Assembly: GCA_965227835.1 (NCBI GenBank)
Contig: OZ245768.1
Coordinates: 870,001-902,000 of the forward strand
Source: Candidatus Saccharimonadota bacterium
GTDB lineage: Bacteria > Patescibacteriota > Gracilibacteria > BD1-5 > UBA6164
DNA: 32,000 bases
Direction of reading: 5' to 3'
This document shows, one piece after another, positions 861-22,150 of this stretch. The notes below the pieces were generated by a model. The model saw only the letters and a list, made by a program, of their open reading frames with translations. It was not told the DNA's origin and did no database searches. A program made the translations under genes and the position numbers. Every line of letters starts with the position of its first letter. Positions within the stretch are counted from its first letter, which is position 1.

Positions 861-1567
861 AAAAAATCATCACTCAATAAAACCTCTAAGTTCTCCTTAA
901 ATTTATCAGAATACTTTATAAATACTGGGGATTTATCATTTATTTTATCTCATTTACTTACATTTGATAAAACTGATGGTTCAATAATTCAATAATATAC
1001 ATATGTCCCTTCTCATATCTGATTATTTATTGCTATTGTCAGTGATGTATTCTCTGTTTTTAATGTAATTATCTTGTACGGAAACTTTCTAAAACTATTT
1101 TTTTTAAAATTTTCTACATATGTATTAATCTCCACTCATTCAAGATTCAATCAATATTTTTTATGCAAAACCTTTAGAAGTGTTTCATATTTTTTGACTT
1201 CTTTAGGAGCTTCAGATTTATTATTAGGTTCTTTTCTTTTTTTTAACAAGTTTAGGCTAGGTTCTTTAGGAACAAAAATAGAAAAATTTAAATCATTTTC
1301 TTTATCTTTTTCTATCTCAATTATCTTTTGTGTTGCCAGTGATACAAATTTGTCAAAAAAAGATTCTACTTCTCTATATCAATTTCTTAAAAATACTTCA
1401 CTATACCTAGATTCTATTTCTTCGTATATTTCTAAAAATCTATCTATAAAATCTTCCTTTGATATTCAATATTTGGAAATTTCTTTGAATAAAATATCCA
1501 TCTTTGTATAACTTCAGATGTTTTTGCAAGGAGCAATAAATGTAGGTGTGTTTTCAATTTTGTTCAT
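1..1567 (-). CDS. Hypothetical repeat protein, paralog A (partial; 3' end lies beyond the left edge). Unique ~250-aa N-terminal region followed by at least 4 tandem ~85-aa repeats
   Basis: The minus-strand frame from ATG 1567 (MNKIENTPTFIAPCKNIGSYTKMDILFKEISKYGISKEDF...) has no TAA/TAG down to position 1 when TGA is sense. The repeats contain many TGA codons. Repeat consensus by eye: LDYKNxEHIKILLSSITDKxGNKxxxDLxTIG...FGYGTEFG..xGSTILxNNGG...LKKxLxxxGIxRPDLP. The N-terminal region is clearly homologous to the fragment at 3760-4278. No family recognised. Confidence 0.7.
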
Positions 1568-1590
1568 TTTAAAAATGTTTTATTGTTAAT

Positions 1591-2345
1591 TTATAAATCA
1601 GGTCTTGATATTCATACACTCTCTAAGATTTTTTTTAAAGATATATTACTTCATCATCAATTATTTTTTAATAAAGATTGTCATGATAAAATTCAAAATT
1701 CTGTTCAGTATCAAAAATATATATGAGAAAAAGAATCACATCAAATAGTTTTTAAATCTAGCTCTAATTTATTTCAATCTTTATCTGTAATACTTGATAA
1801 TAATATCTTTATATGTTCAATATCTTTAAAGTTTAATTCTTCACTTGGTAAATCAGGTCTCAATATTCATACACTCTCTAAAATTCTTTTTAAAGATATA
1901 TTACTTCATCATCAATTATTTTTTAGTATTGTAGCTCATACTACAGATCAAAATATTGTTCAGTATCAAAAATATATATGAGAAAAAGAATCACATCAAA
2001 TAGTTTTTAAATCTAGCTCTAATTTATTTCAATCTCTATCTATAATACTTGATAATAGTATTATTATATGTTCAGGATTTTTATAATCTAATTTACTACT
2101 TGGTAAATCAGGTCTCGATATTCATACAATCTCTAAAACTTTTTTTAAAGATATATTATTTTGTCATCAATTATTCAATAATATTGTAGCTCATGTTACA
2201 GATCAAAATATTGTTCAATGTCAAAAATATAGAGTATGGAAGTCCCTAACTCAAATAATATTCAAATCTGCCTCTACTTTATTTCAATATTTATCTGTAA
2301 TACTCGATAATAGTATCTGGATATGTTCATCGTTTTCATAATCTA
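1591..2345 (-). repeat. Tandem 255-bp coding repeats inside paralog B
   Basis: The landmark 'aatcaggtct' recurs at 1596, 1851 and 2106, an exact 255-bp period. Long identical stretches are shared between units 1 and 2, for example gttcagtatcaaaaatatatatgagaaaaagaatcacatcaaatagtttttaaatctagctctaatttatttcaatct. Confidence 0.9.
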
Positions 2346-2575
2346 ATATTTTTGTTCAATCTAGTAAAAAATTATCACTAAATAAAATCTCTAAATTCTC
2401 CTCAAATCTATCAGAATACTTTATAAATATTGGGGATTTATCATTTATTTTATCTCATTTACTAACATTTGATAAAATTGATGGTTCAATAATTCAATCA
2501 TATACATATGTCCCTTCTCATATTTGATTGTTTATTACTATTGTTAGGGATATGTCTCTAATTTTTATTATAAGG
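1591..2575 (-). pseudogene. Repeat protein paralog B, C-terminal fragment (three 85-aa repeats plus linker), separated from its N-terminal part by an IS insertion
   Basis: The minus-strand frame is open with TGA=Gly from the IS boundary (~2575) to TAA at 1591-1593 (...GISRPDL*). The sequence LIIKIRDISLTIVINNQIGEGTYVYDGIIEPSILSNVSKGDKINDKSPIFIKYSDRF is collinear with paralog A (TLKTENTSLTIAINNQIGEGTYVYYGIIEPSVLSNVSKGDKINDKSPVFIKYSDKF). Confidence 0.8.
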
Positions 2576-3775
2576 GTCTGTTGCGTTTTGACTTTAAAAA
2601 GAGTTTTAATTAAGAAAAGTACTAAATAGATGAAAGATTTATAAAATTCATCTATTTTTTGTTAAATTATAGCCATTTTTATATATAATTTAGGATTTTA
2701 GACGCAATCCACCTAAGGAAACTAATCTAAACTATTGGGACTTCCTCTAAAACAACTAATCTTTTGAGATTAAAAGATATAGCTTCCATAAATGCAGTAA
2801 ACTGATTTTTTACTACAGACTTATACCTCACTCTATGATTCATTTTTGAAAATACTCTCTCATAAGGAGATCTAAGTTTAGAATAAAACTTATCTTTATC
2901 CTTGTTCTTATCTTTCATATTATTTTTCTTTATTGCACATAGATGTAATCACTTCTTTTTTGTTGATATTACAGCCGGTCAAATACAATATCACTTATCA
3001 GCATATACTGCTCATGAACTTGGTAATACATGCTTCATTCACTTTGCATCTGTTACATTAGCTTGAGTTATAGCTATCTTGTTTATCATTCAAGATTGCA
3101 TATCAACACTAGCATGTTTTTTATAACCATACCAAAATTTATTTTTTCACTTAGATCAAATTTTAGCTTCCTTATCATTAGCAACTTTTGGAAGAGTTTC
3201 ATTATTCATTTTTTCATATCATTCTTTTATTCATTTATCTCTTTCTTCCCATAAATTAGCTTTAGTAACTAAATGAGAAGCATCTACAAATGTAAACACT
3301 TCACTCATATAACCCTTATTTGATAATTGATTTTTTAAATCTTCAAATATCTTTGATAGTTCATTTGTTCATATCTTTTTTCTTGCTCTTGTGAATATAC
3401 TATGATCTGGAGTTTTATCTGTTAATTTAAATCAGCAAAACCATTTACCAGCTAAATTTTCTGCAAGATATTTCTCTAACTCTCTATCTGATAGATCTTC
3501 CATAAACTGGATTAGTAAACATAGAAATAATTTTTTTACTCAATATCATACATGAGTTTTTCATAGATCTATATTTTTTAGTATTTTATTTACTCAATCA
3601 AAGTTCCACAATTTCTTAAATTTACGATATTGATGATTTTCTGGAATTAGCTCGTTTAGGATAACAAAACTTATTTGATTTGATTCTCACATAGGTATTT
3701 TCTTAGAATATAATTACTATCTAATTATATCTCTTTTTTCTCTTTTTAATAGTCAAAGTTTAATTTACAACAGGC
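2576..3775 (-). mobile_element. IS5-family insertion sequence (~1.2 kb) inserted into paralog B
   Basis: The homology between paralogs A and B breaks at ~2575 and resumes at ~3776. The ends are imperfect inverted repeats: left gtCTGTTGcgTTTTGACTtTAAAAAGAG, right (reverse complement) gcCTGTTGtaaattaaacTTTGACTatTAAAAAGAG. A single transposase ORF lies inside. Boundaries are good to a few bp only, and no target-site duplication could be identified. Confidence 0.8.
2727..3692 (-). CDS. IS5-family DDE transposase (DUF772 N-terminal region plus DDE_Tnp_1)
   Basis: With TGA=Gly the product is 321 aa: MGESNQISFVILNELIPENHQYRKFKKLWNFDG...LSDRELEKYLAENLAGKWFCGFKL...GSKGKNKFWYGYKKHASVDMQSGMINKIAITQANVTDAKG...VYADKGY...YSKLRSPYERVFSKMNHRVRYKSVVKNQFTAFMEAISFNLKRL. 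The WFCG, FGYK.H, D..SG.I, ADKGY and R..VE..F..K motifs are typical of IS5/InsH-type enzymes. Ends in TAG. Confidence 0.9.
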
Positions 3776-4278
3776 TCTATAACTATTCTATAAGGTAGTT
3801 TCCTAACAAGATCTTTATTAAGGGTTTCTATATATGTTTTCATTTCTACTCATTCAAGTTCTAATCAGTATTTCCTGTGTAGAACTTTTAAAAGTGTTTC
3901 ATATTTCGGGGCTTCCTTAAGAATTTCAGATTTAATATTAGGATTACTTCTTTTTACCAAGTTTAGATTAGATTCTTTAGGAATAAAAATAGAAAAGTTT
4001 AATTCATTTTCTGTATCTTTTTCTATTTCAATTATCCTTTGTGTTGCCAGTAATACAAATTTATCAAAAAAAGATTCTATTTGTATATATCATTTTCTTA
4101 AAAATACTTCACTATATCTAGATTCTATTTCTTCATATATTTCTAAAAATCTATCTACAAAATCTTCCTTTGATATTCAATATTTAGAAATCTCTTTAAA
4201 TAAAATATCCATCTTTGTATAACTTCAGGTGTTTTTGCTAGAATCAATAAATGTAGATTTAATCTCAATTTTGTTCAT
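3760..4278 (-). pseudogene. Repeat protein paralog B, N-terminal fragment, truncated by the IS (stop codon lies inside the IS terminal repeat)
   Basis: From ATG 4278: MNKIEIKSTFIDSSKNTGSYTKMDILFKEISKYGISKEDFVDRFLEIYEEIESRYSEVFLRKGY...KLPYRIVIEPVVN*. This is near-identical in layout to the paralog A N-terminus. It runs into the IS at ~3775 and stops at TAA 3760-3762. Confidence 0.8.
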
Positions 4279-4370
4279 TTTGAAAATTAATTCATTAAAT
4301 ATAAATATTAAGATAATTATTGTTTGACATAAGTCAAATAAATAAAATTAAATTTTTTGAGACAATTTTT

Positions 4371-4397
4371 TTGACACAAATAAAAATTATATATAAT
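4371..4397 (+). promoter_or_regulatory. Candidate sigma70-type promoter for rplJL
   Basis: TTGACA at 4371-4376 and TATAAT at 4392-4397. The spacer is only 15 nt, so this is tentative. Confidence 0.35.
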
Positions 4398-4404
4398 ACT
4401 TGCA

Positions 4405-4550
4405 CTTAAATATTATTTTATTGTAGACAGTAGGCATTATATAAGTCCTACCGAGGTAAAAGAAATATGGTTTTTAAGCAATTAAAACTAAATCTCTTTT
4501 TTACCTATATCTTGTAAAAAAGGGATTTTTTAATTTTTAACTAAAATAAA
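4405..4550 (+). promoter_or_regulatory. Candidate L10 (rplJ) autoregulatory leader
   Basis: This ~145-nt untranslated region directly upstream of rplJ contains a local hairpin (gtagg-cattatataagt-cctac) and a long-range helix (ggtaaaaga ... tcttttttacc). The position matches the known L10 leader class. The sequence was not compared with a covariance model. Confidence 0.35.
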
Positions 4551-5150
4551 ATGGCTTTAAGCAAAGAAAAAAAAGCATATATATTAAATAACTTAAAAGA
4601 GTTAATAAAAGATGCTAGCTCTATAGCTTTCACAACCAACACTGGACTTTCTGTAGAAGAAATAACAAATTTAAGAATAGAGCTAAGAGAAGTTGATGCT
4701 TCTATACTATTGGCAAAAAAAACACTTATCAAATTGGCTTTTAAAGAAGTATTTGATGTAGAAATACCTGATGACTATTTACCTAGACAAATAGCAATGG
4801 TTATTTCTAATAAAGATCCCATATCTGGAATGAGCAAGTTAAATAATTTTAGAAAACAATTAGAAGATAAAATAGAGTGGTCTTCTTGTTTCTTTGATTG
4901 AGAACTAAAGGGGCCAGATGATACGAAAGTTATAGCTTCTATGCCTTCAAGAGAAACATTGTTATCTAGACTTGTTTGATCAATGCAATCTCCACTATCT
5001 TCATTTGCTAGATTTATAGATAAAGCAGCAAAAGATATGCAAGAAAAAGGTAAAGAAAAACTATGAGAGCTACAAAATTCTACTCCAAAACAAAGTGAAG
5101 AAGTTGAAAAATGAGAAAATGAGCTAAAGGAAGAAGAAGCTGTAAAGTAA
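4551..5150 (+). CDS. rplJ: 50S ribosomal protein L10
   Basis: The standard-code ORF 4551-4901 continues through four TGA codons to TAA 5148-5150 (199 aa). The read-through part, ...FFDGELKGPDDTKVIASMPSRETLLSRLVGSMQSPLSSFARFI..., matches the conserved L10 C-terminal layout (G at 'FDGE', 'LVGSMQSP'). It lies immediately upstream of rplL. Confidence 0.9.
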
Positions 5151-5166
5151 TTAATATCTTGGTATA

Positions 5167-5196
5167 CTAAATCTTTATTTAAAAATAAAGATTTAG
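5167..5196 (+). other. Perfect 14-bp-stem hairpin in the rplJ-rplL spacer
   Basis: ctaaatctttattt-aa-aaataaagatttag. Possibly a processing or attenuation element; function unknown. Confidence 0.5.
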
Positions 5197-5271
5197 AAAC
5201 TAGCTATTAATTAGTTAGGAATAGTAATATAAATACTATAAACATAAATTTATTTTGTAATATAAAATATT

Positions 5272-5649
5272 ATGGCTGAATTAAGCGAAAATTCTAAAAA
5301 AATTATGGATTTAGTTAAAGAACTATCTATAGTTGAACTAAATGATTTAGTTAAAGCGATGGAAGAAGAATTTGGTGTTTCTGCTGCTGCTCCTGTAATG
5401 GTTGCTGCTGGTTGAGATGCTGGATGACAAGCTGAAGAAAGCTCTACAAAAAATGTAGAATTAACTTCTGCTGGTGCATCAAAAATTGCTGTTATTAAAA
5501 TAATTAGAGAAATAACAGGTTTAGGTTTGAAAGAAGCTAAAGATATAGCAGATAATGGTTGAGTTGTAAAAGAAAATGCAGAAAAAGCTGAAGCAGATGA
5601 AATTAAAGCTAAATTAGAAGAAGCTTGAGCAAGTGTAGAGTTAAAATAA
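5272..5649 (+). CDS. rplL: 50S ribosomal protein L7/L12
   Basis: [47 protein letters not shown](TGA)DAG(TGA)QAEE...[33 protein letters not shown](TGA)[21 protein letters not shown](TGA)ASVELK*. The last TGA sits exactly on the Gly of the near-universal C-terminal ...LEEAGA.VE.K. 125 aa. Confidence 0.95.
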
Positions 5650-5663
5650 AACTCTTAAAAAAA

Positions 5664-5701: not shown

Positions 5702-5793
5702 TTAAAGAAGTAAAAGAATAAGGGTTTTTGTAAATAAATTTTTGAGTTAGAATTAACAAAAGGGATTGTTTTTGAAAAAAGAATATAAGTTTT

Positions 5794-5980
5794 TATAGTA
5801 AACTAACTCGTAAATTAGAATATTTTAAAATATGAATTTAATTGAAAAAGTAATTTTCTATTATTTATCAACAGAGAGCTTTAGCCCTTTGCTATTATAA
5901 GAAGTTTATATTTTTCAAAAAGACTACACAGTTTATTCATAATATATATAGTAAGATAACAAGCAAGTTAGTTTACTATA
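5794..5980. repeat. Perfect 15-bp inverted repeat pair enclosing ~157 bp upstream of tRNA-Gln
   Basis: tatagtaaactaact (5794-5808) and agttagtttactata (5966-5980). The enclosed DNA contains an inverted orphan copy (5872-5892, cagagagctttagccctttgc) of the small hairpin unit found in the composite repeats at 7440-7850, 9185-9648 and 21850-22150. Confidence 0.6.
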
Positions 5981-6010
5981 AAATGAATTTTTCAAAGTTT
6001 TTTTGATTAA

Positions 6011-6094: not shown

Positions 6095-7291
6095 TTATTT
6101 TTTCAAAAATATATTTTCAAATATATTACTAAATGTAATAAATTTAATATCTAGATTAGGATATTTACTTTTAAAAATTTTATATTTGTTTTCATTTATC
6201 TGATTTTTAGAAAATTTTATTTCATATGCTTCTTTTTCATCAAGTATAAAATCAACCTCATTTTTTTGTTGGGTTCTCCAAAACTTTATAAAAAAATCAT
6301 TTCTATATTTAAACAAAAATTCTCTAAAAACTATATTTTCTAAATAAGCTCATTTATCCAACCTATCTATTATATTGCTAAAATCATTTAAAAAACAATT
6401 CCTTATTCCTAAATCATAAAAATATATTTTAGGCATTTTTGTAAGTTCTTTTCTTATATTAGTGTGAAAAGGTTTTATAAGTGATATAAAAAAACTTTTT
6501 TGCATTATATATAGATATTTTTCTACTGTTTGAAAAGATAAGTTCAATGTATTAGCAAGTTCATTTATGTTTACTAGTTCTCATGTTTGGGTTGATAAAA
6601 TCTTTAATAAATTTAAAAACTTATTTTGATTTTCAATATTAGCCTCATAGATATCTTTTTTTATATAATCAAAACAATAATCTTTTAATCTTTCTACTTT
6701 TTCTTTTTTGTCTTTAATTAGAACTATTTCAGGATATCATCAATAAGTTATATACTCTAAAAATAAATTGTATATTTCATCTCTAAACAAATCTGGTATA
6801 TTTTTACTCTCTAAACAAATTTTTTGTAGCTTAATTTCATTTTTAAATTCTAAAAACTCAAAAAAATCTAGGGTGTATATATTGAATATTTTTTTTCTTC
6901 AAACTAGGCTATCTTTAAATTTTTTATCAATATAAAAGCTACTACTTCAAGTTACAATAAGTTTTATATTATCTTTATATTCATCATAAATATATTTCAA
7001 AAAATTTGTAGGATTATCTAGATATTGTATTTCATCTATAAAAATAATTTGTTTTTCTTTGTATGAACTTCCAGTTATTTCAAAAAGTTTGTTGGGATGT
7101 TTGTTTAGCTTCTCTAAAATTAATCTGTCTTCTAAATTAAGAAAATAGGTTTTTTTATTATTCTTTGTTTGATGTTTTTCGATTGCTTTCAAAATAGTTG
7201 TTTTTCAAACTTGTCTAGCTCAAATAAGCAAAATAATAAGTTTGGAATTTAATTCCTTTTTTATTTCATTTAGGACTATTCTATTTTTCAT
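6095..7291 (-). CDS. AAA+ ATPase of the AAA_14 + DUF4143 type
   Basis: 398 aa with TGA=Gly: MKNRIVLNEIKKELNSKLIILLIGARQVGKTTILKAIEKH...IIFIDEIQYLDNPTNFLKYIYDEY...GSSSF...YGGYPE...FWRTQQKNEVDFIL. Both glycines of the Walker A GARQVGKT are TGA codons. The three standard-code ORF fragments (6095-6316, 6350-6547, 6947-7192) share one frame. Ends in TAA. Confidence 0.85.
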
Positions 7292-7439
7292 AAACTTAAA
7301 AAAATTAGATAATATTTAACTCTAAATCTAATATTATCTAATTTTTTTATAAAACACAAGTTTTTGTTACATTTATGTAAAAAGATTTGTTACAGGGGTT
7401 AGATTTTTTTACTAGTATATAAATATTGCAGAATATATT

Positions 7440-7850
7440 GCAAAGAAATATGCTAATTTTGGGTTAATTTGCAACTAAGTTTTATTTTACAGAAATCCTG
7501 GTATGCAAATGAATAAATGTAAATATTGCTAACGGGCAAATGGCTGAATACAAAAATCTTACTGTGCAAAAGGCTAAAGCCTTCTGCCTAAAGAGATATA
7601 TTAAATTTAGGGTAACTTTTAATAAAATTTATTTTATTATTTTCTCTCCCTATAATAATCTCTGTTCTATCTCCTCTCCTTCCAAAAGGAGAGGGTTAGG
7701 GTGAGGATTATACGGAGAAGGTTAGGATGAAATCTGTTCTACTACCCTCTCCTCCAAAGGAGAGGGGTTGGGGGTGAGGTCTGTACGGAGAGGTTCTGCT
7801 CGGGTGAGAGTGAGGGCTCAGATTAAAGTGAAATTTAAATTCAATAACTT
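7440..7850 (+). repeat. Composite non-coding repeat, copy 1 (AT-rich 'tgcaaa' part, small NGGC-TAAA-GCCN hairpin units, then two GC-rich CCCTCTCC/GGAGAGGG hairpins with G-run tails)
   Basis: Collinear with 9300-9648. For example, aattttgggttaatttgcaactaagttttattttacagaaatc matches aatttttggttaatttgcaattaagttttattttgcaaaaatc. GC-rich hairpins lie at 7673-7694 and 7745-7766, each followed by GTTAGGGTGAGG or GGTTGGGGGTGAGG. Confidence 0.85.
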
Positions 7851-7883
7851 CCATACTCTTAAAACAAACCTTAAAATTCCTAT

Positions 7884-9116
7884 TTACCTAAGCCAAGCTG
7901 GATTTTGAGTTAAAGAAGAACCAAATCTTTCATTATTGTCTCAATTATCTTTAGTTTTAATATTAATTATTGGAACTCTAATATCTTTTATTTCAAAAAC
8001 AGTCTTTCTATTAACAAAATCATTATATTTACAGTCATCTTGTGGAATTTCTATATCTATATTATAAATTTCTTGTCAAAAATTAGTTTCTTCTCAATTT
8101 AAAAATTTAAAACCAAAGGCAGAATAATAATCATTACCATTAGTATAATAATAATGTACTACACCACTACAGTCTCAAACATAAGTTTGTTTTCCTTCAT
8201 TTGATATACTTTGAATATCTAAAATTCTATCATTTGTTAATTCAAATTTAAAATCTTCATCCAAATACTTAAAACCCTCTGATGTAAAATGTTGCTTAAA
8301 TTCTAAATCTTCACTATATCATATTTTAGTCCACCCCCCTCAATCAGTACTCATATCACAATAAACCTCAAATTCATCATTTCAACTAGGATTTATCTTA
8401 TAAACTCAATCTCAATTATCCAAACTAGATTCTAATATCCTCTTACAACTAGAATTATATATTGATTTTATTAATTCAATTCAACTTCAACTAATCTTAT
8501 CATTATCATCTATATGGGATATATATTCATCTGCTGTTGTAGCTATATCTAATTCTCAACTATCTCTTACATCTCAAATCTCTTGAACTGGAACATTTAA
8601 ATTATCTCAACCCCCTGTTAATATTCATAGCTTCTTTCAACTTACCTTAACTTGTCTATCTGCATAATCTATATCATTAGATAATACTTCTCCCTTAAAT
8701 AAACTTACAGTTTCATTTGTTTCTTCTAGTAATGCCATTAATTGAAAGTTCTTTCTATTGTCTGTAGCATAGTATGAAAAATATGTATTATCTAGTGGGT
8801 CTTTACCTTCTTTATCATATTTAATTTTTTTTAGTACTTCTTCTCATGCATATCCTTGATATGCTATAGTATTTCAATTAGTTTTAACTTCTATATAGTC
8901 ATCGGGTATTGGAAGTCTTCATCTTGTTAGTGATAGTTTTAGTCAATCTCATATACTTTCTAGTTGTACTGTTCTATTTGTATCTCTTACTCAAGATAGA
9001 TAGTCTGTATAGCTTACAAATCATATTGTTCAGATTATAGCTAGTATTGTTACTACTACTATTAGCTCTACTAGGGTGAATGCTTTTTTTAGTTGGAGGG
9101 TTAGTTTGTTTTTCAT
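7884..9116 (-). CDS. Type IV pilin-like protein with a C-terminal fibrinogen-like YCDxxxxGGGW domain (putative pilus-borne adhesin or lectin)
   Basis: 410 aa with TGA=Gly. The N-terminus MKNKLTLQLKKA|FTLVELIVVVTILAIIGTIGFVSY is a prepilin-type cleavage/methylation signal (F+1, E+5). The C-terminal half contains SCKRILESSLDNGDGVYKINPSGNDEFEVYCDMSTDGGGWTKI (motif at 8331-8363). This matches the fibrinogen-related-domain core C..I...G...G.Y.I.P.....F.VYCDM.TDGGGWT. Ends in TAA 7884-7886. Confidence 0.85.
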
Positions 9117-9184
9117 TTGAGGGGGAGTTAAGAGTTAAAAGTTATAAAGTTAAAAGTTTTTTATAGTTTTTTTATAAACATTTA

Positions 9185-9648
9185 TATTAGATAAAGGTCT
9201 GAATGCAAATAACTTACTGTACAAATGGCTAAAGACTTCTGCCTAAAGGGTGTAATGGTAATATGAGACAAATGGCTAAAGCCATCTGTTGAAATGAATA
9301 TAATAATTTTTGGTTAATTTGCAATTAAGTTTTATTTTGCAAAAATCTTACTATGCAAATGGCTAAATGCAAATATTGTTAATTGAGCAAAGGATTGAAT
9401 ACAAATATTGTTAATGGGCAAAGGGCTGAATATAAATATTGTTAATGGGCAAAGGGCTAAAGCCCTCTGTTGAAGGGAAACAATAGATTTAAAAATAATT
9501 TATAGAGTAAAATTTATTTTATTATTCTCTACTCTGTAATAGTAATTTATATTCTATTCCTTCTGTTCTATTCCCCTCTCCTCTAAGGAGAGGGGTTGGG
9601 GGTGAGGTTACCTCGGAGAGGATTAGGGTGAGGTTTGTTCAGATCAAA
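9185..9648 (+). repeat. Composite non-coding repeat, copy 2 (same orientation as copy 1)
   Basis: Contains hairpin units at 9272-9285 (atggc-taaa-gccat) and 9453-9466 (agggc-taaa-gccct). Three tandem ~31-bp units lie at 9371-9477 (aaatattgttaatgggcaaagggctgaatat...). The GC-rich hairpin cccctctcc-tctaa-ggagagggg lies at 9573-9595 and is followed by ttgggggtgagg ... ggagaggattagggtgagg. Confidence 0.85.
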
Positions 9649-9649
9649 A

Positions 9650-10054
9650 CTAGGTAAGAAATTTTTCTAAACTAGAACTTATCTCTTTTCATATTAAATG
9701 TTCTATCTTACAAGCATTTATAACAGCATCTTTTTCACTAACACCAAGTTTCTCTATAAAAAACTTTACAAATAAATCTCTATTTTTTTTAGTTTGGGCA
9801 ACTATTTCTTCTCAATATCTTGTAAGTTTTATAAATTTATTCTCATCCTCTTCTATCAATCACTTTTTTATTAAAGACTTTATTCATATAGAACAACTCC
9901 CAGGAGTAATATCTAGTTTTTTAGATATATCAACAGCTCTGGAATATCAATTTGATTTCAATAATTCCTCAACAGTAAAGAGATAATGTGTGGCTGAATG
10001 AGTTACCTCATTACCCTCAAACTCTTTCCAAACTGAACTTTGATCATAAACCAT
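9650..10054 (-). CDS. DtxR/MntR-family metal-dependent transcriptional repressor
   Basis: 134 aa: MVYDQSSVWKEFEGNEVTHSATHYLFTVEELLKSNGYSRAVDISKKLDITPGSCSIGIKSLIKKGLIEEDENKFIKLTRYGEEIVAQTKKNRDLFVKFFIEKLGVSEKDAVINACKIEHLIGKEI... This matches the DtxR N-terminal wHTH plus dimerisation layout (HYL..I.EL...GY.R..DI...L.....S....K.L...GL......LT..G.........FL...LGV....A...AC..EH). Ends in TAG. Confidence 0.8.
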
Positions 10055-10312
10055 AATATATCTTTATATTTAATATTTTGTACTATTTTAATAAAATATA
10101 TTATATATCAAAAGATTTTAATTATTTAAAAAACAATAAAAAAATCTTCATTTATATAATAATTGAAGACTTTTTAGTAGATTTTAGTAAGTAGTATTCT
10201 TATATATATATTTTAAGGAAATATTTGAGAATTAATTCAAAATAAAATGTAAATTTTTCAATCAATATTTGATACTTAAATCATACTATTCTTTAGAAAA
10301 AGCTGATAATCC

Positions 10313-12073
10313 TTATGCTAAACCATCATAATAATCTAAAACTATCTTTTTTGTATAATTAATAATTTCTGATGATTGCCTAGGAGATAAATCATCAAGA
10401 TTTAAAAGAGATTTAATTTCACTCACAACCATACGAACAAAAACATCTTTATTTTCTTTGTCTACTTCTTGATTATCTTTCATAAATTCATAAATCTTAC
10501 TCTTTAAAAATCTATAAATAAATTTCTGAGAATGAGGGTAAAACAGTTTTCTATTCTTACGACTATACACTTGGATACCCTCAAAGGTATTAATAAAATC
10601 TAGTTCTTTTAAATGTTCTATATATACCTTTTCTCTTAATATATTTATATCTTCTGAACTGAATCAATAAACATTAACAAGTTTATTTTGTATCTCTCTT
10701 ATACATTGAGAATAATTTTTATTACTTTCTCCCACATCAATACTACAATAACCCACATAGTCAGAGCATAGAGAATATATTTCACTAAGTGTTGTTAGAA
10801 CTGATAAATCATTGTCTTTTAAAATATTTGGTTTATCAATTTTTGTTTTTTTAAGCCTATGTTTATTTGAATTATAAGATACTTTAAAATAAATCTTTCA
10901 TCAACTAAAAAAAGCATTTAAGGTGATATCTCATGAATCACATAGATATTGAAAAAATTCTTTAGAATGCAAAAGAGAGTTAAGATTACTTTCAAATTCA
11001 GATTTAAATACTCTTACAAGTTCTCTTGCTCATTTTTCTCTTGAATATCATAAATCTATAATATGTTTGTACAAACTATTATCTAAAGAAAGATTTACCC
11101 TAGATTCTTTATAAAACTTTTTTAAAGCATCATTAATATCTGAAACTTGAATTTCAAGTATTTTTCTACATTCGCTTAGTCAAATATTATCAAAAATTAT
11201 TACATCATCCAACCTTCAAATAAATTCAGGAGAAAATTTGGTCTTCATACTATCATTAAATATCTTCTCAGATACTGATTTTATATCTCCTACATTATCT
11301 TGAACAAATCAAATAGGAGGAGTATACAAAGATTTATTTATTTCTGATTGTCATATATTGGAAGTAAAAAAAATTATTGAGTTAGCTAAAGAAGTAGTTT
11401 TCCCTGAAGGAAAATCTATTTTACCCTCATCTATAACACTCAACAAACTTTGAATAACAACAGGACTAGCTTTTTCTATCTCATCAAAAAGTATTATATT
11501 AAAATTATCCAGCTTTTTTACACAATCATGCAAACTTCATTTTCTTTTTGCCTTTTCATAAGGTTTAAATAATTTTCTAGCAGAAAAAGGTGTATCGTCT
11601 TTATATCACACATATCCTTTGGGTGATCAAAAAACATTGGATAATGTATGATCTTCAGTATAAGTCTCACAAGCTATTTTTGTAATACTTTCCCTATCTC
11701 AAAAAATAGCTTGTGCCAAAGCTTTGGGTATTTCCGTTTTTCAAACTCATGTAGGTCAGACTAAAAATAGAACTGAAATTGGTCATCTTCTTGGTCTAAT
11801 TGATAAAATACTATTTATTATTGAATCTAGTATTTTATGTTTTGCCTCATTTTGACCAATTACAATTTTATCCAAAGAATTTAATAAGTCTATTTTATGA
11901 TGATTAATGCTAGGAGCCTCTAATATTTCATAAGCTCTTTTTTTAAATCATTTTACTGGTCTTTCTGTAGAATTTATATAACTAGATATTCTTTTTTCTA
12001 CAGGTTGAGAAGAGTCACTTGAATTAAAATCACTTACAATCTTTCTAAGATTTGATTTATCTCAACTTCACAT
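10313..12073 (-). CDS. Stand-alone ClpA/ClpB D2-like AAA+ ATPase (AAA_2) with a ~200-aa uncharacterised C-terminal extension
   Basis: 586 aa with TGA=Gly: ...LDKIVIGQNEAKHKILDSIINSILSIRPRRGPISVLFLVGPTGVGKTEIPKALAQAIFGD...GSPKGYVGY...IILFDEIEKASPVVIQSLLSVIDEGKIDFPSGKTTSLANSIIFFTSNIG...FSPEFIGRLDDVIIFDNI...GYSREKGARELVRVF. All three glycines of the Walker A GPTGVGKT are TGA. No N-domain, D1 or ClpP-loop was seen. Ends in TAA. Confidence 0.85.
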
Positions 12074-12253
12074 CTTTAATATTTATAAATAAATTTAAAA
12101 TTTGTCACCTTATATTAATAGGATATTTACATAAGTCAATTAGAAAAAATAATATTTTTTTACAATTTTACAAAAAGTTTTATATATTTTAGGGAAACCT
12201 TGAAGAATTCTAAACAAGATTTTAGATTTATTTGAAAAAATAAAAAATAATCT

Positions 12254-14287
12254 ATGAAACAAATAATAAAAGAAATTAAAAATCCTAAAATAAATGATTT
12301 TGAGTTTTTATTTTCCGAAAAGAATTTAAAAAAATCTACAGATATATTAAAATGACTGCTTGATAAAGAAAAAAAAAGATTTAAAGAAAAAATAAAAAAC
12401 TTTAAAGATGGAACTAAACCAAGTTTTGAGACCTTTCAAGATGATAGCATTTTAGATATATATTGGTCGTATTTAAATCATTTAAAATGAGTATATGACA
12501 CAAAACAAATAAGAGATATAATAGATGATTTTGAACCCTATATAATAGAATTTTCAAACGAAGTAGCATACAATAAAACTTATTATGAAATGCTTAAATC
12601 ATGTATAGAAGATTGTAATTTAAATGATGAACAGAAAAAAATAATAGAAGAAAGTATAAAGTATTATGAAGCTAGATGAATTAATTTAGAAAAATCTAAA
12701 CAATCCAGATTAAAAAAAATAAAAGGAAAACTAACAAAACTTTCAAACAGATTTTCTAATAATCTACTTGATAGTCAAAAAGAATTTTTATATCATATAG
12801 AAACAAAAAAAACTTTGGAAGAACTACCAGAAGAGATATTGGAACAAACAGGGAAAAAAGCAAAAGAACAGTGAAAGGAATGATATATTTTTACTTCAAA
12901 CCCTTCTGAATATATAGCAATTATGAAATATTGTTCAGATGGTAATATAAGAAAAGATTTTTACGAAAAAAAGCATAGTTTTGCTTCAAATTGAAAATAT
13001 GACAATAGAAAAATTGTTCTTGAAATACTTAAACTAAGAGAAGAAAAAGCAAATATTTTGTGATATAAAAATTATGCCGAGCTATCTCTTGAATTTAAAA
13101 TGGCAAAAAGCCCCGAAGAGATAGTTAATTTGTTTGAAAATATCAATAAAAAAGCCAGAATAAAAGCAAAAAAAGAAATAAAAGAGTTAAAAAGATATTT
13201 TAATTTATCAAATTTACAAGACTGGGATTTAAGCTACTACTTTAGAAAATACAAAGAAGAAAACTATAAAATAAACGAAAAAGAAATAAAAGAATTTTTT
13301 GAATTTGAGAAAGTACTCTTGTGATTACATCAAATCGTTTACAAACTATATTGACTTGAATTTAAAGTGAAAAAACAAGAATCTCAATTATTAGATAAAG
13401 AAAATAAAATATTTTGAGATGTAAGGTTTTATGAGGTTTACAAAGATTGAAGATTAATATCTTATTACATATTAGATCCTTTTTACAGAGCAGAAAAGAG
13501 ATCTTGAGCCTGGGCTGATAATATTAGAGATAAATATAAATGAAGAATACCAATAATTGTAAATGTCTGTAACTTTAACCCACCTTGATTTGTGGATTGA
13601 TCAAAAGAAAAAATATCTCTTATGAGTATTTTAGATGTAGAGACATTATTTCACGAATTTGGTCATGCTATACACGAGATAAGTAGTAAAAGTTATTATA
13701 CTGAATTGACTTGATTTGATGTAGAATGGGACTTTATAGAGGTACCTTCACAGTTTTTAGAACACTATACAGGGGAAAAAGAATCTTTAGATATATTTGC
13801 TCTAAACTATAAAAATGGTAAAAAAATACCTAAAAATATTTTAGATTCTTTGAAAAAATCAAAAAACCTTTGAAGCTGAAATTTTGTGCTAAGACAAAAT
13901 GAGTTTTGATTTCTTGATATTATTCTTCATTCCAAAAAAGCACCTGAGAATATAAAAAAACTAGATGAAATAACATTAAATATAGCTAACAAGTATGGGA
14001 TAAATAAAAAAGAAGAAAACTATAAAATGTATGCTTGATTTTCCCATATATTTGCTTGATGATATGCATCAGGATATTATTCATATATGTGGGCTGAAAT
14101 AATAGAGTTAGATATATGGAGTGAATTTAAGAAAAATTGAATTTTTGATAAAAAAACAGGAAAAAAGTTTTTTGATACCATACTTTCAGCTTGAAGTTAC
14201 AAAAAAGCTCCAGATATGTTTTTTGATTTTATGTGAAGAGAACCAAATATAGAAGCTTTTATAAAAGATAAAGGTTTTGGGGTATAA
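12254..14287 (+). CDS. M3-family zinc metallopeptidase (oligopeptidase A / dipeptidyl carboxypeptidase-like)
   Basis: 677 aa with TGA=Gly. HEFGH zinc motif at 13652-13666 in the context ETLFHEFGHAIHEISSKSYYTELTGFDVEWDFIEVPSQFLEHY. The C-terminal part reads ...[27 protein letters not shown], typical of M3A. The standard-code fragment 13100-13324 is in the same frame. Confidence 0.85.
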
Positions 14288-14370
14288 AGATTTTCAAAAT
14301 AAAAATGGGAAAACATAAATAGTTTTTAAAATATTTTATTTCATAATCTAACAAATATATATGCAACAAA

Positions 14371-15024
14371 TTATTCAAATGTTTTAGGGTTACCTCAATC
14401 AACTATTTTACTTTGTTGAGAATGCAATATTAAAGGAGTATGAACCAAATTTAAAGGAAATTGAGAAATTTTATGTTTAGGAAAAATATAAATACCAGGA
14501 TTAAAATGAGTCTTTCTCATAATCTTTTGAACCATATCTAGAAAATGAGTTTTGTAATCTAGTTCTTTTTCTCAAATCAATAAAGCCCCCATAAAATTTC
14601 ATTTCTCATTTAAATCTTTATAAGAATTTATAAATTTTTCAATATTCACACTAGGTAAGTACAAATCTGTTGGCAAAATAACAAGATGAGTATTTCTATC
14701 ATTCATACAATATCCTGTTAGTATATGTCATAATTGGGTTGAAAAGTAACTTAGTAATTTTCATGCTATATCTGTTTCTCTCGTAAAACTAGGAAGCTTT
14801 TGTTCCACAATATTTGGAATATCAAAAAATTCCTCACATCTTCCTTTAGGGATAATTACCTTTGAATCAAAACCTGGAATCCTATGTTCAAGAATTTCAT
14901 CTAAAAATGTTTTTTCTATACCTGGAATTTTCAATCTACATTTAAAATTAACTCATTTTTCTTGGCAAATATTTTTAACTCTTGAACCTTTCCCTCAAGC
15001 AAGAAATAACATTTCAAATTTCAT
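14371..15024 (-). CDS. Small nucleotidyltransferase (NTP_transferase / MobA-like fold, N-terminal LAGGxGxR motif)
   Basis: 217 aa: MKFEMLFLAGGKGSRVKNICQEKGVNFKCRLKIPGIEKTFLDEILEH... The motif LFLAGGKGSR (GG encoded by TGA TGA) is the sugar-phosphate/nucleotide nucleotidyltransferase signature. The rest is not recognisable by eye. Ends in TAA. Confidence 0.6.
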
Positions 15025-15191
15025 AATAATTTCAATTATTTAATCTTTTTTAGAATTTTTCCATTCTTCATGATTTTTTAACATTTGGGGAGATATTTTA
15101 AGTATTTCTTGTTTTTTGGAGTCAACCAATCACAAGGAATAATATCACATAGAATGTTTTTTATCATTAGAACCATATACATGGCAAAGAG

Positions 15192-17204: not shown

Positions 17205-17237
17205 ATAATTATTATTGAGACAAAAATTTATATTTAA

Positions 17238-17530: not shown

Positions 17531-17586
17531 TTGAATTATATTGTGATAAATATATATTCAACAAATAAAATGGAAATGTTAGAAGT

Positions 17587-17614
17587 ATTTTACTCTGTTT
17601 TTTATAAAAGTCAA
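17587..17614 (-). promoter_or_regulatory. Candidate leftward sigma70-type promoter (towards the structured island and helicase)
   Basis: On the minus strand: TTGACT (17614-17609), 16-nt spacer, TAAAAT (17592-17587). It lies inside the left arm of the inverted repeat. Confidence 0.45.
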
Positions 17615-17862: not shown

Positions 17863-17872
17863 TCAATATAAT
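17845..17872 (+). promoter_or_regulatory. Candidate rightward sigma70-type promoter for the Nudix gene
   Basis: TTGACT (17845-17850), 16-nt spacer, TATAAT (17867-17872), ~30 nt upstream of ATG 17904. It lies inside the right arm of the inverted repeat. Confidence 0.55.
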
Positions 17873-21849: not shown

Positions 21850-22150
21850 GAAAAATTAAAATTTGACAAAGAATTAAAGCACTTTGTTGAATAAGTCAAC
21901 AAAATTTTGAAGTTCCTTACTGAATAATATCAAAAAGTGTTGAATTTCTCCGTTGATCAAATTTGGCAAAGAGCTAAAGCTCTTTACTGAAATAATATAA
22001 TAATTTTAGAATAAAATTTATTCTATTATGCTTTGCTATATAATAATATCTGTTTTATGCCCTCTCCTTTAAGGAGAGGTTTAGGGTGAGGTTTTGCTCG
22101 GAGAGGGTTAGGGTGAGAGCTTTACAGAAAGGGTTAAAATGAAATATTAA
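21850..22150 (+). repeat. Composite non-coding repeat, copy 3 (shorter), upstream of the pilin pair
   Basis: Hairpin units acaaag...ctttgt (~21876-21898) and aagagc-taaa-gctctt (21969-21984). Then the shared aaatttattctattat segment and the GC-rich hairpin ccctctcc-tttaa-ggagagg (22060-22079), followed by tttagggtgagg...ggagagggttagggtgagag. Same order and orientation as copies 1 and 2. Confidence 0.8.

What the first reader, a model, noticed from the sequence alone, without database searches (positions are those of the whole stretch)
7440..9648. The adhesin-pilin gene is bracketed by two direct copies of a ~400-450 bp composite non-coding repeat; a third copy precedes the pilin pair
Copies at 7440-7850 and 9185-9648 have the same module order and the same orientation. 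The order is an AT-rich 'ttggttaatttgcaa(c/t)taagttttatttt' segment, small hairpin units, an 'aaatttattttattatt' segment, then a GC-rich hairpin with G-run tail. They flank a single gene on the opposite strand.

A shorter third copy (21850-22150) lies ~170 nt upstream of the pilin at 22322. An orphan inverted hairpin unit lies at 5872-5892. So three of the four occurrences are next to pilin genes.

Direct repeats around a surface-adhesin gene would permit recombinational excision, duplication or replacement of the cassette. The elements could also be regulatory RNAs or DNA sites shared by pilin genes. I do not recognise the composite element as a named family.
Basis: seen in the sequence. Interest (0 to 1): 0.7.

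Follow-up and report, generated by a model that had tools for sequence, protein, structure and literature searches.

The report
Mosaic repeat arrays flanking pilin-adhesin gene
The two 400-450 bp repeats around this surface-adhesin pilin gene are real, but they are patchworks of a known pan-bacterial element (BoxC/triplex motif), a previously undescribed small hairpin repeat of TGA-recoded bacteria and a 31-bp tandem repeat. One copy is the shared upstream region of a recombining family of pilin adhesins with swappable tips.

Summary
Copies A (7440-7850), B (9185-9648) and C (core 21966-22119) share the same modules in the same order and orientation, far above chance. The genome uses code 25 (TGA = Gly).

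The composite is not one new element. Its GC-rich hairpin with G-run tail is the known BoxC/PIT/TMECO triplex motif, which I found in more than ten phyla. Its small hairpin is a separate 25-nt repeat family that I found only on TGA-recoded, low-GC contigs. It shows covariation and is absent from Rfam and the searchable literature.

Copy B is the ~520-nt 5' flank shared by at least six members of a modular type IV pilin family. The members have an invariant N-terminal 262 residues and unalignable fibrinogen-like tips, and they sit at unrelated loci. Homology starts inside the BoxC cluster and ends at codon ~263. Family members show gene-conversion mosaics. The number of 31-nt units varies, an IS110 element sits inside a BoxC stem, and the whole array-gene-array unit recurs at another locus.

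Best reading: these are NIME/BIME-like intergenic mosaic arrays that carry the family's promoter region and act as portable homology for recombination. That role is inferred. The link to pilins is specific to this lineage.

The parts
5873..5891 (-). Isolated small hairpin unit (the 'orphan'). In the sister genome L239 this segment is inverted and adjoins copy A in the same orientation.
7447..7490 (+). Copy A 'head' module. On the - strand it holds TTGCAA with a -10-like hexamer.
7502..7565 (+). Copy A: two 31-nt units. About one unit (30 nt) is missing in L239.
   Evidence: (D15)
7566..7590 (+). Copy A small hairpin (stem CAAAAGGC / GCCTTCTG).
7624..7640 (+). Copy A AT box AAAATTTATTTTATTAT.
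7662..7706 (+). Copy A BoxC/TMECO-like unit 1: leader CTGTTCTAT, C-stem, loop, G-stem, mirror G-stem.
7734..7779 (+). Copy A BoxC/TMECO-like unit 2. Further degenerate G-boxes extend to 7817.
7884..8327 (-). Variable 'tip' part of the pilin-adhesin gene (codons ~264-410). Paralogs cannot be aligned here.
8328..9116 (-). Constant part of the pilin-adhesin gene (codons 1-263: prepilin signal, stalk, YCDxxxxGGGW motif). 85-100% identical among paralogs and a gene-conversion mosaic.
7556..8610 (.). 1055-nt tract that is 100% identical to sister genome L239. It starts in copy A and ends in the constant region.
9222..9287 (+). Copy B: two small hairpin units between the head and the start codon, in the predicted 5' UTR of the gene. 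One is deleted in L239.
9297..9345 (+). Copy B 'head'. On the gene-sense (-) strand TTGCAA-16 nt-TATATT at 9324->9297 is conserved in 5 of 6 family members.
9355..9458 (+). Copy B 31-nt tandem array (3.3 copies). Copy number ranges from 1 to 3-4 among family members and orthologs.
9449..9473 (+). Copy B consensus small hairpin GCAAAGGGCTAAAGCCCTCTGTTGA.
9509..9525 (+). Copy B AT box.
9563..9633 (+). Copy B BoxC/TMECO-like unit (9563-9607) plus an extra G-box (9615-9633). This is the upstream boundary of the homology block shared by paralogs.
21967..21985 (+). Copy C small hairpin.
22013..22029 (+). Copy C AT box.
22050..22119 (+). Copy C BoxC/TMECO-like unit (22050-22091) plus an extra G-box (22100-22119), about 200 nt upstream of the pilin gene at 22322.

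Best explanation
The 'composite repeat' is an intergenic mosaic array, comparable to neisserial NIME arrays, E. coli BIMEs and pneumococcal BOX elements.

It is built from independent short repeats:
- the pan-bacterial BoxC/PIT/TMECO hairpin-plus-mirror-G-block motif;
- a 25-nt hairpin repeat found only on TGA-recoded, low-GC contigs (the window's relatives are annotated Candidatus Gracilibacteria);
- a 31-nt tandem unit derived from the 5' half of that hairpin;
- an AT box;
- a 'head' that carries a sigma-70-like promoter pointing at the gene.

Shown:
- Copy B is the 5' flank of the gene. It is co-duplicated with, and kept similar to, the constant 5' two-thirds of a multigene family of modular type IV pilin adhesins whose fibrinogen-like tips differ completely.
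- The shared block begins inside the BoxC cluster and ends at codon ~263.
- Family members exchange sequence by gene conversion.
- Copy A is an older, more diverged copy of the same array at the gene's 3' end. Copy C is a core-only copy.
- The full array-gene-array unit also sits at a second, unrelated locus.

Inferred:
- In the gene-sense direction the array reads as 3'-end/insulator hairpins (BoxC, small hairpin), then the 31-nt array, then the promoter, then 5'-UTR hairpins.
- The arrays together with the constant region serve as portable homology arms. Through them tips are replaced, relocated or exchanged between strains, which diversifies the pilus-tip adhesin of a bacterium that probably depends on a host.
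For: **Identity of the modules**
- The BoxC/TMECO pattern and its literature.
- Of 111 loci from many phyla, 56 carry the same stem plus the GGGTGAG tail, although the scan did not ask for the tail.
- E. coli genomes hold a median of 17 places each.
- The hairpin family appears as an exact 25-mer in dozens of contigs of 19-29% GC.
- All 31 hairpin-bearing contigs of at least 4 kb are TGA-recoded.
- Covariation in the hairpin stem: 21 double-sided changes vs 5.8 in shuffles, 0 of 500 shuffles as high.

**Family and shared flank**
- Close paralogs were found by protein search.
- Residues 1-262 are invariant and the tips cannot be aligned.
- All six genes have AT box, hairpin and 31-nt units upstream, on the strand opposite the gene. 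The ~520-nt flank aligns in five of them; in L243 an IS110 element has truncated it to ~150 nt.
- Block limits are W 9608-9634 to W 8328.
- At least three members lie on one 1.49-Mb contig.

**Recombination**
- In the 5' CDS, L239 is 100% identical to its own-sample paralog L243 but only 87.5-97% to its ortholog in the window. The window is 98-100% identical to L240 and L241 at +350 to +530. The orthologs are 99-100% identical from +470 onward.
- The 1055-nt perfect tract W 7556-8610 begins in copy A.
- L240 carries array-gene-array between unrelated genes.

**Instability at the arrays**
- 31-nt unit indels, a hairpin deletion, extra G-boxes, the ATPase indel at A's edge, and an IS110 element inside a BoxC stem.

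**Promoter and orientation**
- TTGCAA-16-TATATT on the gene-sense strand is conserved in 5 of 6 flanks.
- Hairpin stability.
- From my manual reading of the map, 5 of 6 isolated hairpins are oriented so that the upstream gene's mRNA carries the fully paired form.

**Analogy**
- NIME arrays next to surface-protein genes hold recombination endpoints (PMC1797815).
Against: - No transcript data exist. The promoter and terminator roles rest on consensus matches, and the number of such matches in the region is not above chance (13 found vs 15.1 expected). No canonical intrinsic terminator was found in the arrays.
- Long perfect tracts between the two sister genomes also occur elsewhere (575 nt in tyrS). 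The tract ending in copy A therefore does not prove anchoring by the repeat.
- Three of the paralogs (L241-L243) have no array downstream, so bracketing is not a general feature of the family.
- A and B share at most 24 identical bases in a row.
- Copy C points the wrong way to act as a promoter cassette for the pilin pair.
- All sister loci were retrieved through the adhesin family, so the sample is biased. Only C is an independent pilin-adjacent case; by my estimate the chance of that is about 2 in 13-15 intergenic regions, counted.
- In E. coli, BoxC showed no promoter, terminator or conjugation effect (PMC4666352).
Confidence: 0.5

Rival explanations
1. Neutral or selfish accumulation. BoxC units and the small hairpins are REP/MITE-like elements that spread by themselves and pile up in the few long intergenic regions of a compact genome. 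The same order at A, B and C only reflects segmental duplication of one such pile together with a gene family. The arrays have no role in expression or recombination.
For: - Individual modules are dispersed next to unrelated genes (L27|S7, S7|S12 and others).
- In the window the three arrays occupy three of the four longest intergenic regions.
- Distant Gracilibacteria homologs lack them.
- BoxC had no measurable activity in E. coli.
- An IS inserts into them, as if into junk or a safe haven.
Against: - The segment from BoxC through the AT box to the hairpin is among the best-conserved stretches of the shared flank. It is nearly invariant in five flanks and 100% identical between the orthologs in copy A.
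- The hairpin stem covaries.
- The identical 25-mer persists across genomes of 19-37% GC.
- The composites have no terminal inverted repeats (longest inverted match 5-6 nt), so they are not classical MITEs.
Confidence: 0.25
2. A cis-regulatory array. The 31-nt units (three helical turns, with a near-palindromic core ACAAATATTGT) and the AT box are operator sites for a regulator, possibly the adjacent DtxR-like repressor. Changes in copy number tune or switch expression of each adhesin paralog. The BoxC unit and hairpin insulate the promoter from upstream transcription.
For: - A 31-nt period with variable copy number, from 1 to 3-4, among paralogs and orthologs.
- A constant position upstream of a conserved promoter-like site.
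- The DtxR-like gene lies directly upstream in the window and in L239.
Against: - Four of the six family members have no DtxR-like neighbour.
- Copies A and C have the units or the core without a matching downstream adhesin gene.
- No known operator consensus was matched, and the periodicity could result from slippage alone.
- This reading does not exclude the best explanation.
Confidence: 0.12
3. A programmed, structure-initiated recombination site, as with the G-quadruplex and its small RNA upstream of pilE in Neisseria gonorrhoeae (my own knowledge: Cahoon and Seifert 2009, 2013). Transcription from the -10-like element next to the AT box runs through the G-rich strand of BoxC. This lets a triplex or a two-tetrad G4 form, which nicks or stalls replication and starts gene conversion of the neighbouring pilin gene.
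For: - A TATAAT/TGTAAT element lies 16-17 nt after TTTATT of the AT box in A, B and C, reading toward BoxC (my reading of the sequence).
- All two-tetrad G4 matches on the + strand of the window fall in these units (5 of 5).
- BoxC forms a triplex and stalls polymerase in vitro in E. coli work.
- Gene conversion of the family is real.
Against: - There is no canonical G4 in the window (0 matches).
- No silent tip cassettes were found.
- BoxC also sits next to many non-variable genes.
- The strict 9-nt TMECO pattern is not met.
Confidence: 0.06
4. The 25-nt hairpin is a DNA-uptake-type signal (as DUS and USS are in Neisseria and Haemophilus) or a recombinase site, recognised by the type IV pilus or competence machinery of these recoded bacteria. 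Its clustering next to pilin genes would favour their exchange by transformation.
For: - An identical 25-mer is conserved across many recoded genomes that differ widely in GC content.
- It is often found in inverted pairs, as DUS pairs are (my own knowledge).
- Patchy 100%-identical tracts between sister genomes show frequent DNA exchange.
Against: - Density is low, about 1 per 5 kb in the window, and the units appear to be confined to intergenic DNA, unlike DUS/USS.
- Covariation in the stem indicates selection for structure rather than for a fixed recognition word.
- Three other Gracilibacteria loci (~44 kb in all) have none.
Confidence: 0.03

Closest known systems
BoxC / PIT element / TMECO intrastrand triplex motif (Bachellier and colleagues, 1990s; Hoyne and Maher 2000; Holder et al. 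2015, PMC4666352; Kaplan et al. 2016, PMC5100583)
   Same: The GC-rich module has the same sequence logic: C-stem CCCTCTCC, loop, G-stem GGAGAGGG, a 2-3-nt loop, then mirror block GGGTGAGG. It is intergenic, multicopy and sometimes tandem, and the neighbouring DNA is rearranged between strains. IS elements and indels accompany it.
   Different: The stems are 8 nt rather than 9, so the published strict pattern finds none in the window. The host is a 25% GC, TGA-recoded CPR bacterium, whereas the literature I read reports Proteobacteria and cyanobacteria. The units carry a CTGTTYTAY leader that six sampled E. coli K-12 copies lack. Here the motif is welded to other modules in a fixed order.
Neisserial intergenic mosaic elements (NIME arrays: dRS3 + RS units) (PMC1797815)
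   Same: Both are noncoding mosaic arrays of short repeats next to surface-protein and pilin genes. Both are proposed to serve as recombination substrates, have recombination endpoints inside the arrays, receive opportunistic IS insertions, and alternate GC-rich and AT-rich subunits.
   Different: No dRS3 (ATTCCCN8GGGAAT) is present (0 matches) and there is no sequence relationship. The arrays here are short (0.2-0.5 kb) and are co-duplicated with a gene family. NIMEs were reported as specific to Neisseria.
Pneumococcal BOX elements (boxA-boxB(n)-boxC) and E. coli BIMEs (my own knowledge: Martin et al. 1992; Gilson et al. 1991)
   Same: Both are modular intergenic repeats with a fixed module order and a variable number of an internal unit. 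They are predicted to form stable hairpins and can influence neighbouring genes.
   Different: The sequences are unrelated. No RAYT or other dedicated transposase was identified here. The full composite appears tied to one gene family rather than spread across the genome.
Modular type IV pilins with a grafted adhesive module (PMC8179133) and the NCBIfam NF040941 'fibrinogen-like YCDxxxxGGGW domain' proteins
   Same: The bracketed gene encodes a prepilin N-terminus plus a C-terminal fibrinogen/collagen-C-like module. More than 600 homologs exist, and those that carry a source name are mostly from Candidatus Gracilibacteria.
   Different: Here the family is multicopy within one genome. It has a sharply bounded constant part, hypervariable tips, a shared upstream array and demonstrable gene conversion.

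Membership tests
BoxC / PIT / TMECO triplex motif | C-rich stem, 3-6-nt loop and complementary G-rich stem (a hairpin) | tested here: met
   Four units in the window: 7674-7705, 7747-7778, 9576-9606 and 22062-22090. The hairpin is stable as DNA (-11.2 kcal/mol, z = -3.6) and as RNA (-22 kcal/mol MFE; centroid hairpin -19.1).
BoxC / PIT / TMECO triplex motif | A second G-rich block, mirror-symmetric to the first, after a ~3-nt loop (capable of forming a triplex) | tested here: met
   GGAGAGGG-TTA-GGGTGAGG and GGAGAGGGG-TT-GGGGGTGAGG. Six G-box pairs were found vs 0 expected.
BoxC / PIT / TMECO triplex motif | The strict published pattern CCCTCNCCC N3-6 GGGNGAGGG N3 GGGNGAGGG (9-nt stems) | tested here: not met
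   0 matches in the window vs 45 in 31 of the 110 genome loci. The window units are a version with 8-nt stems, also seen in other low-GC genomes (Peribacteria, Gracilibacteria, Bacteroidota).
BoxC / PIT / TMECO triplex motif | Strictly intergenic and multicopy | tested here: met
   All units in the window and in L239-L243 lie between called genes.
BoxC / PIT / TMECO triplex motif | Forms an intrastrand triplex or G4 in vitro | not testable with these tools
   Needs CD, NMR or DMS footprinting of the 8-nt version. There is no canonical G4 (0 matches); two-tetrad G4 patterns occur at all units.
BoxC / PIT / TMECO triplex motif | Flanking DNA is more rearranged between strains than control intergenic DNA | tested here: inconclusive
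   Indels and an ATPase-gene indel sit next to the arrays, but the BoxC cores of copy A are 100% conserved. Large rearrangements also occur away from the arrays (W 10125-18916). No matched control set was available.
NIME array (Neisseria) | dRS3 20-bp inverted repeats ATTCCCN8GGGAAT flanking RS units | tested here: not met
   0 matches on either strand.
NIME array (Neisseria) | Mosaic noncoding arrays next to surface-protein genes, with recombination endpoints inside them | tested here: inconclusive
   The arrays flank the pilin-adhesin gene. The paralog homology block starts in the BoxC cluster and the 1055-nt perfect tract starts in copy A. The sample is small and biased, and long tracts occur elsewhere.
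MITE | Terminal inverted repeats and target-site duplication; an empty site in relatives | tested here: not met
   The longest inverted match between the ends of the composites is 5-6 nt. No empty site was found; L239 retains A, B and a degenerate C.
REP / BIME | Short imperfect palindromes, dispersed in intergenic DNA, clustered in mosaics with other motifs | tested here: met
   The small hairpin is dispersed, often in inverted pairs, covaries, and sits in mosaics with BoxC and the AT box.
REP / BIME | An associated RAYT (Y1 transposase) and a conserved 5' GTAG head | not tested
   No Y1-transposase gene was looked for beyond the Pfam labels of the called genes in L239-L246 (none listed). The whole genome was not available.
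Known RNA family (Rfam 15) | A match at or above a family's gathering score | tested here: not met
   Only two tRNAs in the window. Nothing better than E = 0.9 in 7300-9700.
Modular type IV pilin / GGGWT_bact | Prepilin N-terminal methylation motif plus a fibrinogen-like YCDxxxxGGGW domain | tested here: met
   PF07963 24.4 bits (cut-off 21.2), PF01410 43.9, PF00147 31. NF040941 59.8 bits (cut-off 30) and TIGR02532 23.6 (cut-off 16.3).

The most novel reading that the evidence does not exclude
A CPR bacterium with a reduced, recoded genome runs a NIME-like diversification system for its pilus-tip adhesins. Arrays bounded by BoxC (triplex- or G4-prone) and studded with a lineage-wide 25-nt hairpin would mark and stimulate recombination, so that fibrinogen-like tip cassettes are swapped between paralogous loci and between strains. 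The 31-nt repeat number would set expression. This would give BoxC, whose function has been unknown for about 30 years, a concrete role as a recombination boundary or initiator, and would show that NIME-type arrays evolved outside Neisseria.
Probability: 0.18. Interest if true: 0.75.

Novelty: new variant of a known kind. Interest (0 to 1): 0.5.

Why it matters
Gracilibacteria and their relatives are thought to live attached to, or preying on, other bacteria, and type IV pili are their likely attachment organs. A multigene family of pilins with one constant stalk and interchangeable tips, kept together by gene conversion and bounded by repeat arrays, is a plausible way to change host specificity. 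It can be tested directly with long-read metagenomes.

Two further points matter independently.
- The BoxC/triplex motif has had no known function since the 1990s. It turns out to be present, nearly unchanged, in genomes from 23% to 71% GC, including minimal CPR genomes. That narrows the set of conserved factors that could act on it.
- The 25-nt hairpin repeat is a simple sequence marker for TGA-recoded lineages. It has not been described in the literature I could search.

Tried and rejected
- **Contig look-ups.** Two products that read the same under both codes were not on record. P0004 and P0006, on the 1.49-Mb genome that probably holds the window, could not be fetched. So no whole-genome copy count was possible.
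- **Rfam.** No family matches the repeats or the IS110 flanks.
- **Terminator reading.** The scans found no intrinsic terminators in the arrays.
- **A single structured RNA spanning the composite.** The whole-element folds are only modestly better than shuffles (z = -2.0 and -3.0) and the structures differ between A and B. Rejected in favour of local hairpins.
- **MITE.** No terminal inverted repeats.
- **NIME membership.** No dRS3.
- **Canonical G4.** None.
- **CTGTTYTAY as a universal part of BoxC.** Rejected. Six E. coli K-12 copies have other leaders, and bystander copies are only weakly enriched (3 of 35 at 7 of 8 positions vs 0.65 expected). My genome scan required this leader, so its frequency cannot be estimated from that scan.
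- **A general Gracilibacteria association of the arrays with this pilin family.** Rejected. Three distant homolog loci have none of the modules.
- **The 1055-nt perfect tract as proof of repeat-anchored exchange.** Downgraded after finding a 575-nt perfect tract in tyrS.


Full report
**1. Genetic code and gene content**

The window is 25% GC. Under table 11 it shows only 16 ORFs of 80 aa or more. With TGA read as a sense codon, long ORFs tile it. The Walker A motifs of the PilB- and PilT-like ATPases read GPTxSxKTT with x = TGA, so TGA = Gly, which is code 25.

The gene between the repeats, 7884-9116(-), encodes 410 aa. It has a prepilin methylation motif, a COLFI/Fibrinogen_C-like C-terminus and the NCBIfam domain 'fibrinogen-like YCDxxxxGGGW'. 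It is a modular type IV pilin of the kind reviewed in PMC8179133. Its neighbours are an AAA_14/DUF4143 ATPase gene (6095-7291, -) and a DtxR-like repressor gene (9650-10054, -).

**2.

BLAST within the window gives these matches:
- A vs B: E = 4e-29 (head plus 31-nt units) and E = 2e-13 (GC module).
- C vs A: E = 8e-19.
- C vs B: E = 3e-17.

The modules stand in one order on the + strand: head, 31-nt units, small hairpin, AT box, GC hairpin with G tail.

Counts against shuffles: 6 small hairpins vs 0.09 expected, and 6 G-boxes vs 0. There are 3 exact AT boxes, one per copy. Tandem Repeats Finder reports a 73-nt unit x1.9 in A (7661-7795) and a 31-nt unit x3.3 in B (9355-9458). No Rfam family matches.

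**3. The GC-rich module is a known element**

Of the 111 loci held at that point, 56 also carried the GGGTGAG tail at the right distance, although the pattern did not require it. Across genomes of 23-71% GC the element reads CTGTTYTAC-YCCCTCTCC(C)-loop-(G)GGAGAGGG-NN-GGGGTGAGG(G).

A full-text search for the sequence led to two papers:
- Holder et al. 2015 (PMC4666352) treat it as BoxC = PIT element = TMECO, with the pattern CCCTCNCCC N3-6 GGGNGAGGG N3 GGGNGAGGG. They found 3610 copies in 262 proteobacterial genomes. It is always intergenic and shows no strand bias. It had no promoter or terminator activity in earlier work. It forms a triplex in vitro, and its loci are more rearranged among E. 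coli strains than controls.
- Kaplan et al. 2016 (PMC5100583) describe it as a G-quadruplex-hairpin-duplex switch.

E. coli genomes hold a median of 17 places each.

The window's four units have 8-nt stems, so the strict published pattern finds none of them. It finds 45 in the cross-phylum loci. The CTGTTYTAY leader is a subtype: six K-12 copies have GTTTTCT or CGGTC instead.

**4. The small hairpin is a second, independent family**

The exact 25-mer ACAAAGGGCTAAAGCCCTCTGTTGA recurs in dozens of contigs of 19-29% GC from many samples. Variant stems covary: CAGC/GCTG, TGGC/GCCA, AAGC/GTTT.

At the stem positions that the pattern left free, 78% of cells are Watson-Crick pairs in the low-GC contigs. 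In the other hits, which are mostly chance matches, the figure is 35%. Pair counting on 47 distinct units gives 21 double-sided changes vs 5.8 in shuffles (0 of 500 as high), and shifting the register collapses the pairing.

The constant A.C at pair 7-22 becomes G.U on the opposite strand. That strand folds into a clean 8-bp hairpin (-12.6 kcal/mol, 97% of the ensemble, z = -3.45), compared with z = -1.78 for the forward strand.

All 31 contigs of at least 4 kb with a family-type unit are TGA-recoded: ORF coverage is 0.00-0.59 with TGA as stop and 0.73-0.96 with TGA as sense. Most chance hits lie on standard-code contigs. The sequence is absent from the searchable literature.

**5. Copy B is the shared 5' flank of a gene family**

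A protein search found P0001 (91% identity, full length), P0002 (80%) and P0003-P0007 (84-89% over ~65% of the query). P0121 (410 aa), P0004 and P0006 lie on one 1.49-Mb contig, probably the window's own genome.

The protein alignment shows residues 1-262 nearly invariant up to EFEVYCDMSTDGGGW. After that the tips cannot be aligned.

Five contigs from one sample were retrieved (L239-L243). In all six cases, counting the window, the gene is preceded by AT box, hairpin and 31-nt units on the opposite strand. In five of the six, about 520 nt from BoxC to the ATG align despite unrelated neighbours. In L243 an IS110 element interrupts the flank, so only ~150 nt next to the gene are shared.

Homology to the window starts at W 9608-9634, inside the BoxC/G-box cluster (W 9248 for L243). 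For the paralogs with a different tip it ends at W 8328-8352, codon 255-263.

A TTGCAA-16-TATATT site on the gene-sense strand in the 'head' is conserved in 5 of 6 flanks. The number of 31-nt units runs from 1 to 3-4.

**6. Recombination**

Sliding-window identities show a mosaic:
- CDS -10 to +170: L239 is 100% identical to L243, a paralog from the same sample, but 87.5-96.7% identical to its ortholog in the window.
- CDS +350 to +530: the window is 98-100% identical to L240 and L241 but 92.5% identical to L239.
- CDS +470 to +770: the window and L239 are 99-100% identical, and the others ~90-95%.

This is gene conversion among family members.

Between the orthologous loci the longest perfect run is 1055 nt (W 7556-8610). 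It runs from inside copy A, through the AT box, both BoxC units and the whole tip, into the constant region. Flanking genes differ by 3-18 substitutions per 100 aligned bases. Other long perfect runs exist, such as 575 nt in tyrS. Exchange between these lineages is therefore common, and this tract alone does not prove anchoring by the repeat.

Differences between the orthologous arrays are indels of 31-nt units, loss of a 5'-UTR hairpin, extra G-boxes next to the DtxR-like gene, and a 78-nt indel at A's outer edge.

In L239 the ATPase gene (W 6102-7431) is absent, and the segment with the orphan hairpin is inverted and adjoins A.

**7. The unit recurs elsewhere**

In L240 a copy with the same tip type lies between TsaD/170-aa genes on one side and QueA on the other. 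It has a B-like array upstream. Downstream it has a BoxC unit, a degenerate BoxC unit, an AT box and a hairpin, which is the A architecture.

An IS110-family element (with a 99% identical copy in L243) is inserted inside the 3' arm of the BoxC stem...GGAGGAGAG|IS|GGAGTAGAACAG....

**8. Limits of the pilin association**

Single BoxC units and hairpins sit between L27|S7, S7|S12, next to L19, and beside other unrelated genes. Paralogs L241-L243 have no downstream array.

All AT-box-containing cores seen in about 120 kb of this lineage are next to pilin genes. But the sister loci were fetched through the adhesin family, so only copy C, upstream of the pilin pair and in the opposite polarity, is an independent case. 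It is weak evidence: about 13-15 intergenic regions are available in the window.

Three more distant Gracilibacteria homolog loci, including one on the closed genome CP042461, have none of the modules within +-8 kb. For L244 only 155 nt upstream of the gene is available.

**9. Interpretation**

*Shown*
- The modular make-up of the composite.
- The identity of the GC module with BoxC/TMECO, in an 8-nt-stem variant.
- A new covarying hairpin family found only on recoded contigs.
- The shared 5' flank and constant region of a multigene pilin-adhesin family.
- Gene conversion among family members.
- Variable 31-nt copy number.
- IS110 targeting of BoxC.
- Relocation of the whole array-gene-array unit.

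*Inferred*
- The head is the promoter.
- The reverse-strand hairpins act as 3'-end or insulator structures. From my manual reading of the map, 5 of 6 isolated hairpins have the orientation that fits this.
- The arrays, with the constant region, serve as homology arms for tip exchange.

The closest functional analogue is the neisserial NIME array. For those arrays the same role was proposed, and 13 of 19 tbpB replacement fragments ended in or near an array (PMC1797815). There is no sequence relationship and no dRS3.

The main rival is neutral accumulation plus co-duplication. A regulatory-operator reading of the 31-nt array is compatible with the best explanation. A Neisseria-like structure-initiated mechanism and a DNA-uptake-signal role for the hairpin are not excluded, but no direct evidence supports either.

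**10. Verdict**

The finding is real and richer than described, but the composite is not a new kind of element. It is a lineage-specific mosaic of a known motif and a new small repeat, tied to a recombining adhesin family. I rate the novelty as a new variant of a known kind, and the interest as moderate (0.5).

Noticed in passing
Genome-contig loci L001-L110 (e.g. L040 4068-4098, L025 4870-4897, L093 6763-6790): BoxC/TMECO-like units with near-identical sequence and a CTGTTYTAY leader occur in more than ten phyla, from 23% to 71% GC. These include the CPR groups Gracilibacteria, Peribacteria and Saccharibacteria. The literature I read reports the motif for Proteobacteria and cyanobacteria only.
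   Followed up: partly
metagenome loci L112-L231; window 5873-5891, 7567-7585, 9222-9240, 9269-9287, 9450-9468, 21967-21985: A 25-nt hairpin repeat, (A/G)CAAAGGGCTAAAGCCCTCTGTTGA, was found only on TGA-recoded low-GC contigs (31 of 31 contigs of at least 4 kb). Its stem covaries. In some lineages it forms ~130-nt inverted pairs. It is not in Rfam or the searchable literature.
   Followed up: yes
L240 ~4313-5653 and L243 ~8436-9776: Two 99% identical copies of an IS110-family element (DEDD transposase plus a called 69-aa ORF) are each inserted inside the 3' arm of a BoxC stem. This suggests site-specific targeting of the motif. No Rfam match lies in its noncoding ends.
   Followed up: partly
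window 1-4347: A DDE transposase gene (2727-3692, -; DUF772 + DDE_Tnp_1) splits a large gene made of 255-nt (85-aa) tandem repeats. The gene's 5' end is duplicated (1233-1532 vs 3944-4243, 91%). The repeat protein has no Pfam match.
   Followed up: partly
window 10125-18916 vs L239 7203-8994: About 8.8 kb (Clp-like ATPase, M3 peptidase, SF1 helicase, NUDIX and others) in the window is replaced by a single recJ gene in the sister genome. This breakpoint is not next to a repeat array.
   Followed up: no
window 6102-7431: The AAA_14/DUF4143 ATPase gene lies next to tRNA-Gln and is absent from the sister genome L239. The neighbouring 200-nt segment (5792-5990) is inverted there.
   Followed up: partly
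window 22204-22901: The first pilin of the pilin pair is only ~81% identical to its ortholog in L239 (18 substitutions per 100 aligned bases). The adjacent pilin2 and pilT-pilC are 95-97% identical. This locally fast-evolving or exchanged pilin sits directly downstream of copy C, which is itself only 67% identical between the genomes.
   Followed up: no
window 31283-31313 and 31885-31915: Two copies of a 31-nt GC-rich palindrome, AAAAACCGGTGAGCGAGGCTCACCGGTTTTT, accompany tandemly duplicated genes for small secreted proteins (30742-31212, 31291-31866). They look like terminators duplicated together with the genes.
   Followed up: no
window 20708-21282 (tyrS) vs L239: A 575-nt stretch is perfectly identical, inside a region that otherwise differs by 7.6%. 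This indicates frequent homologous exchange between these lineages across the genome.
   Followed up: no
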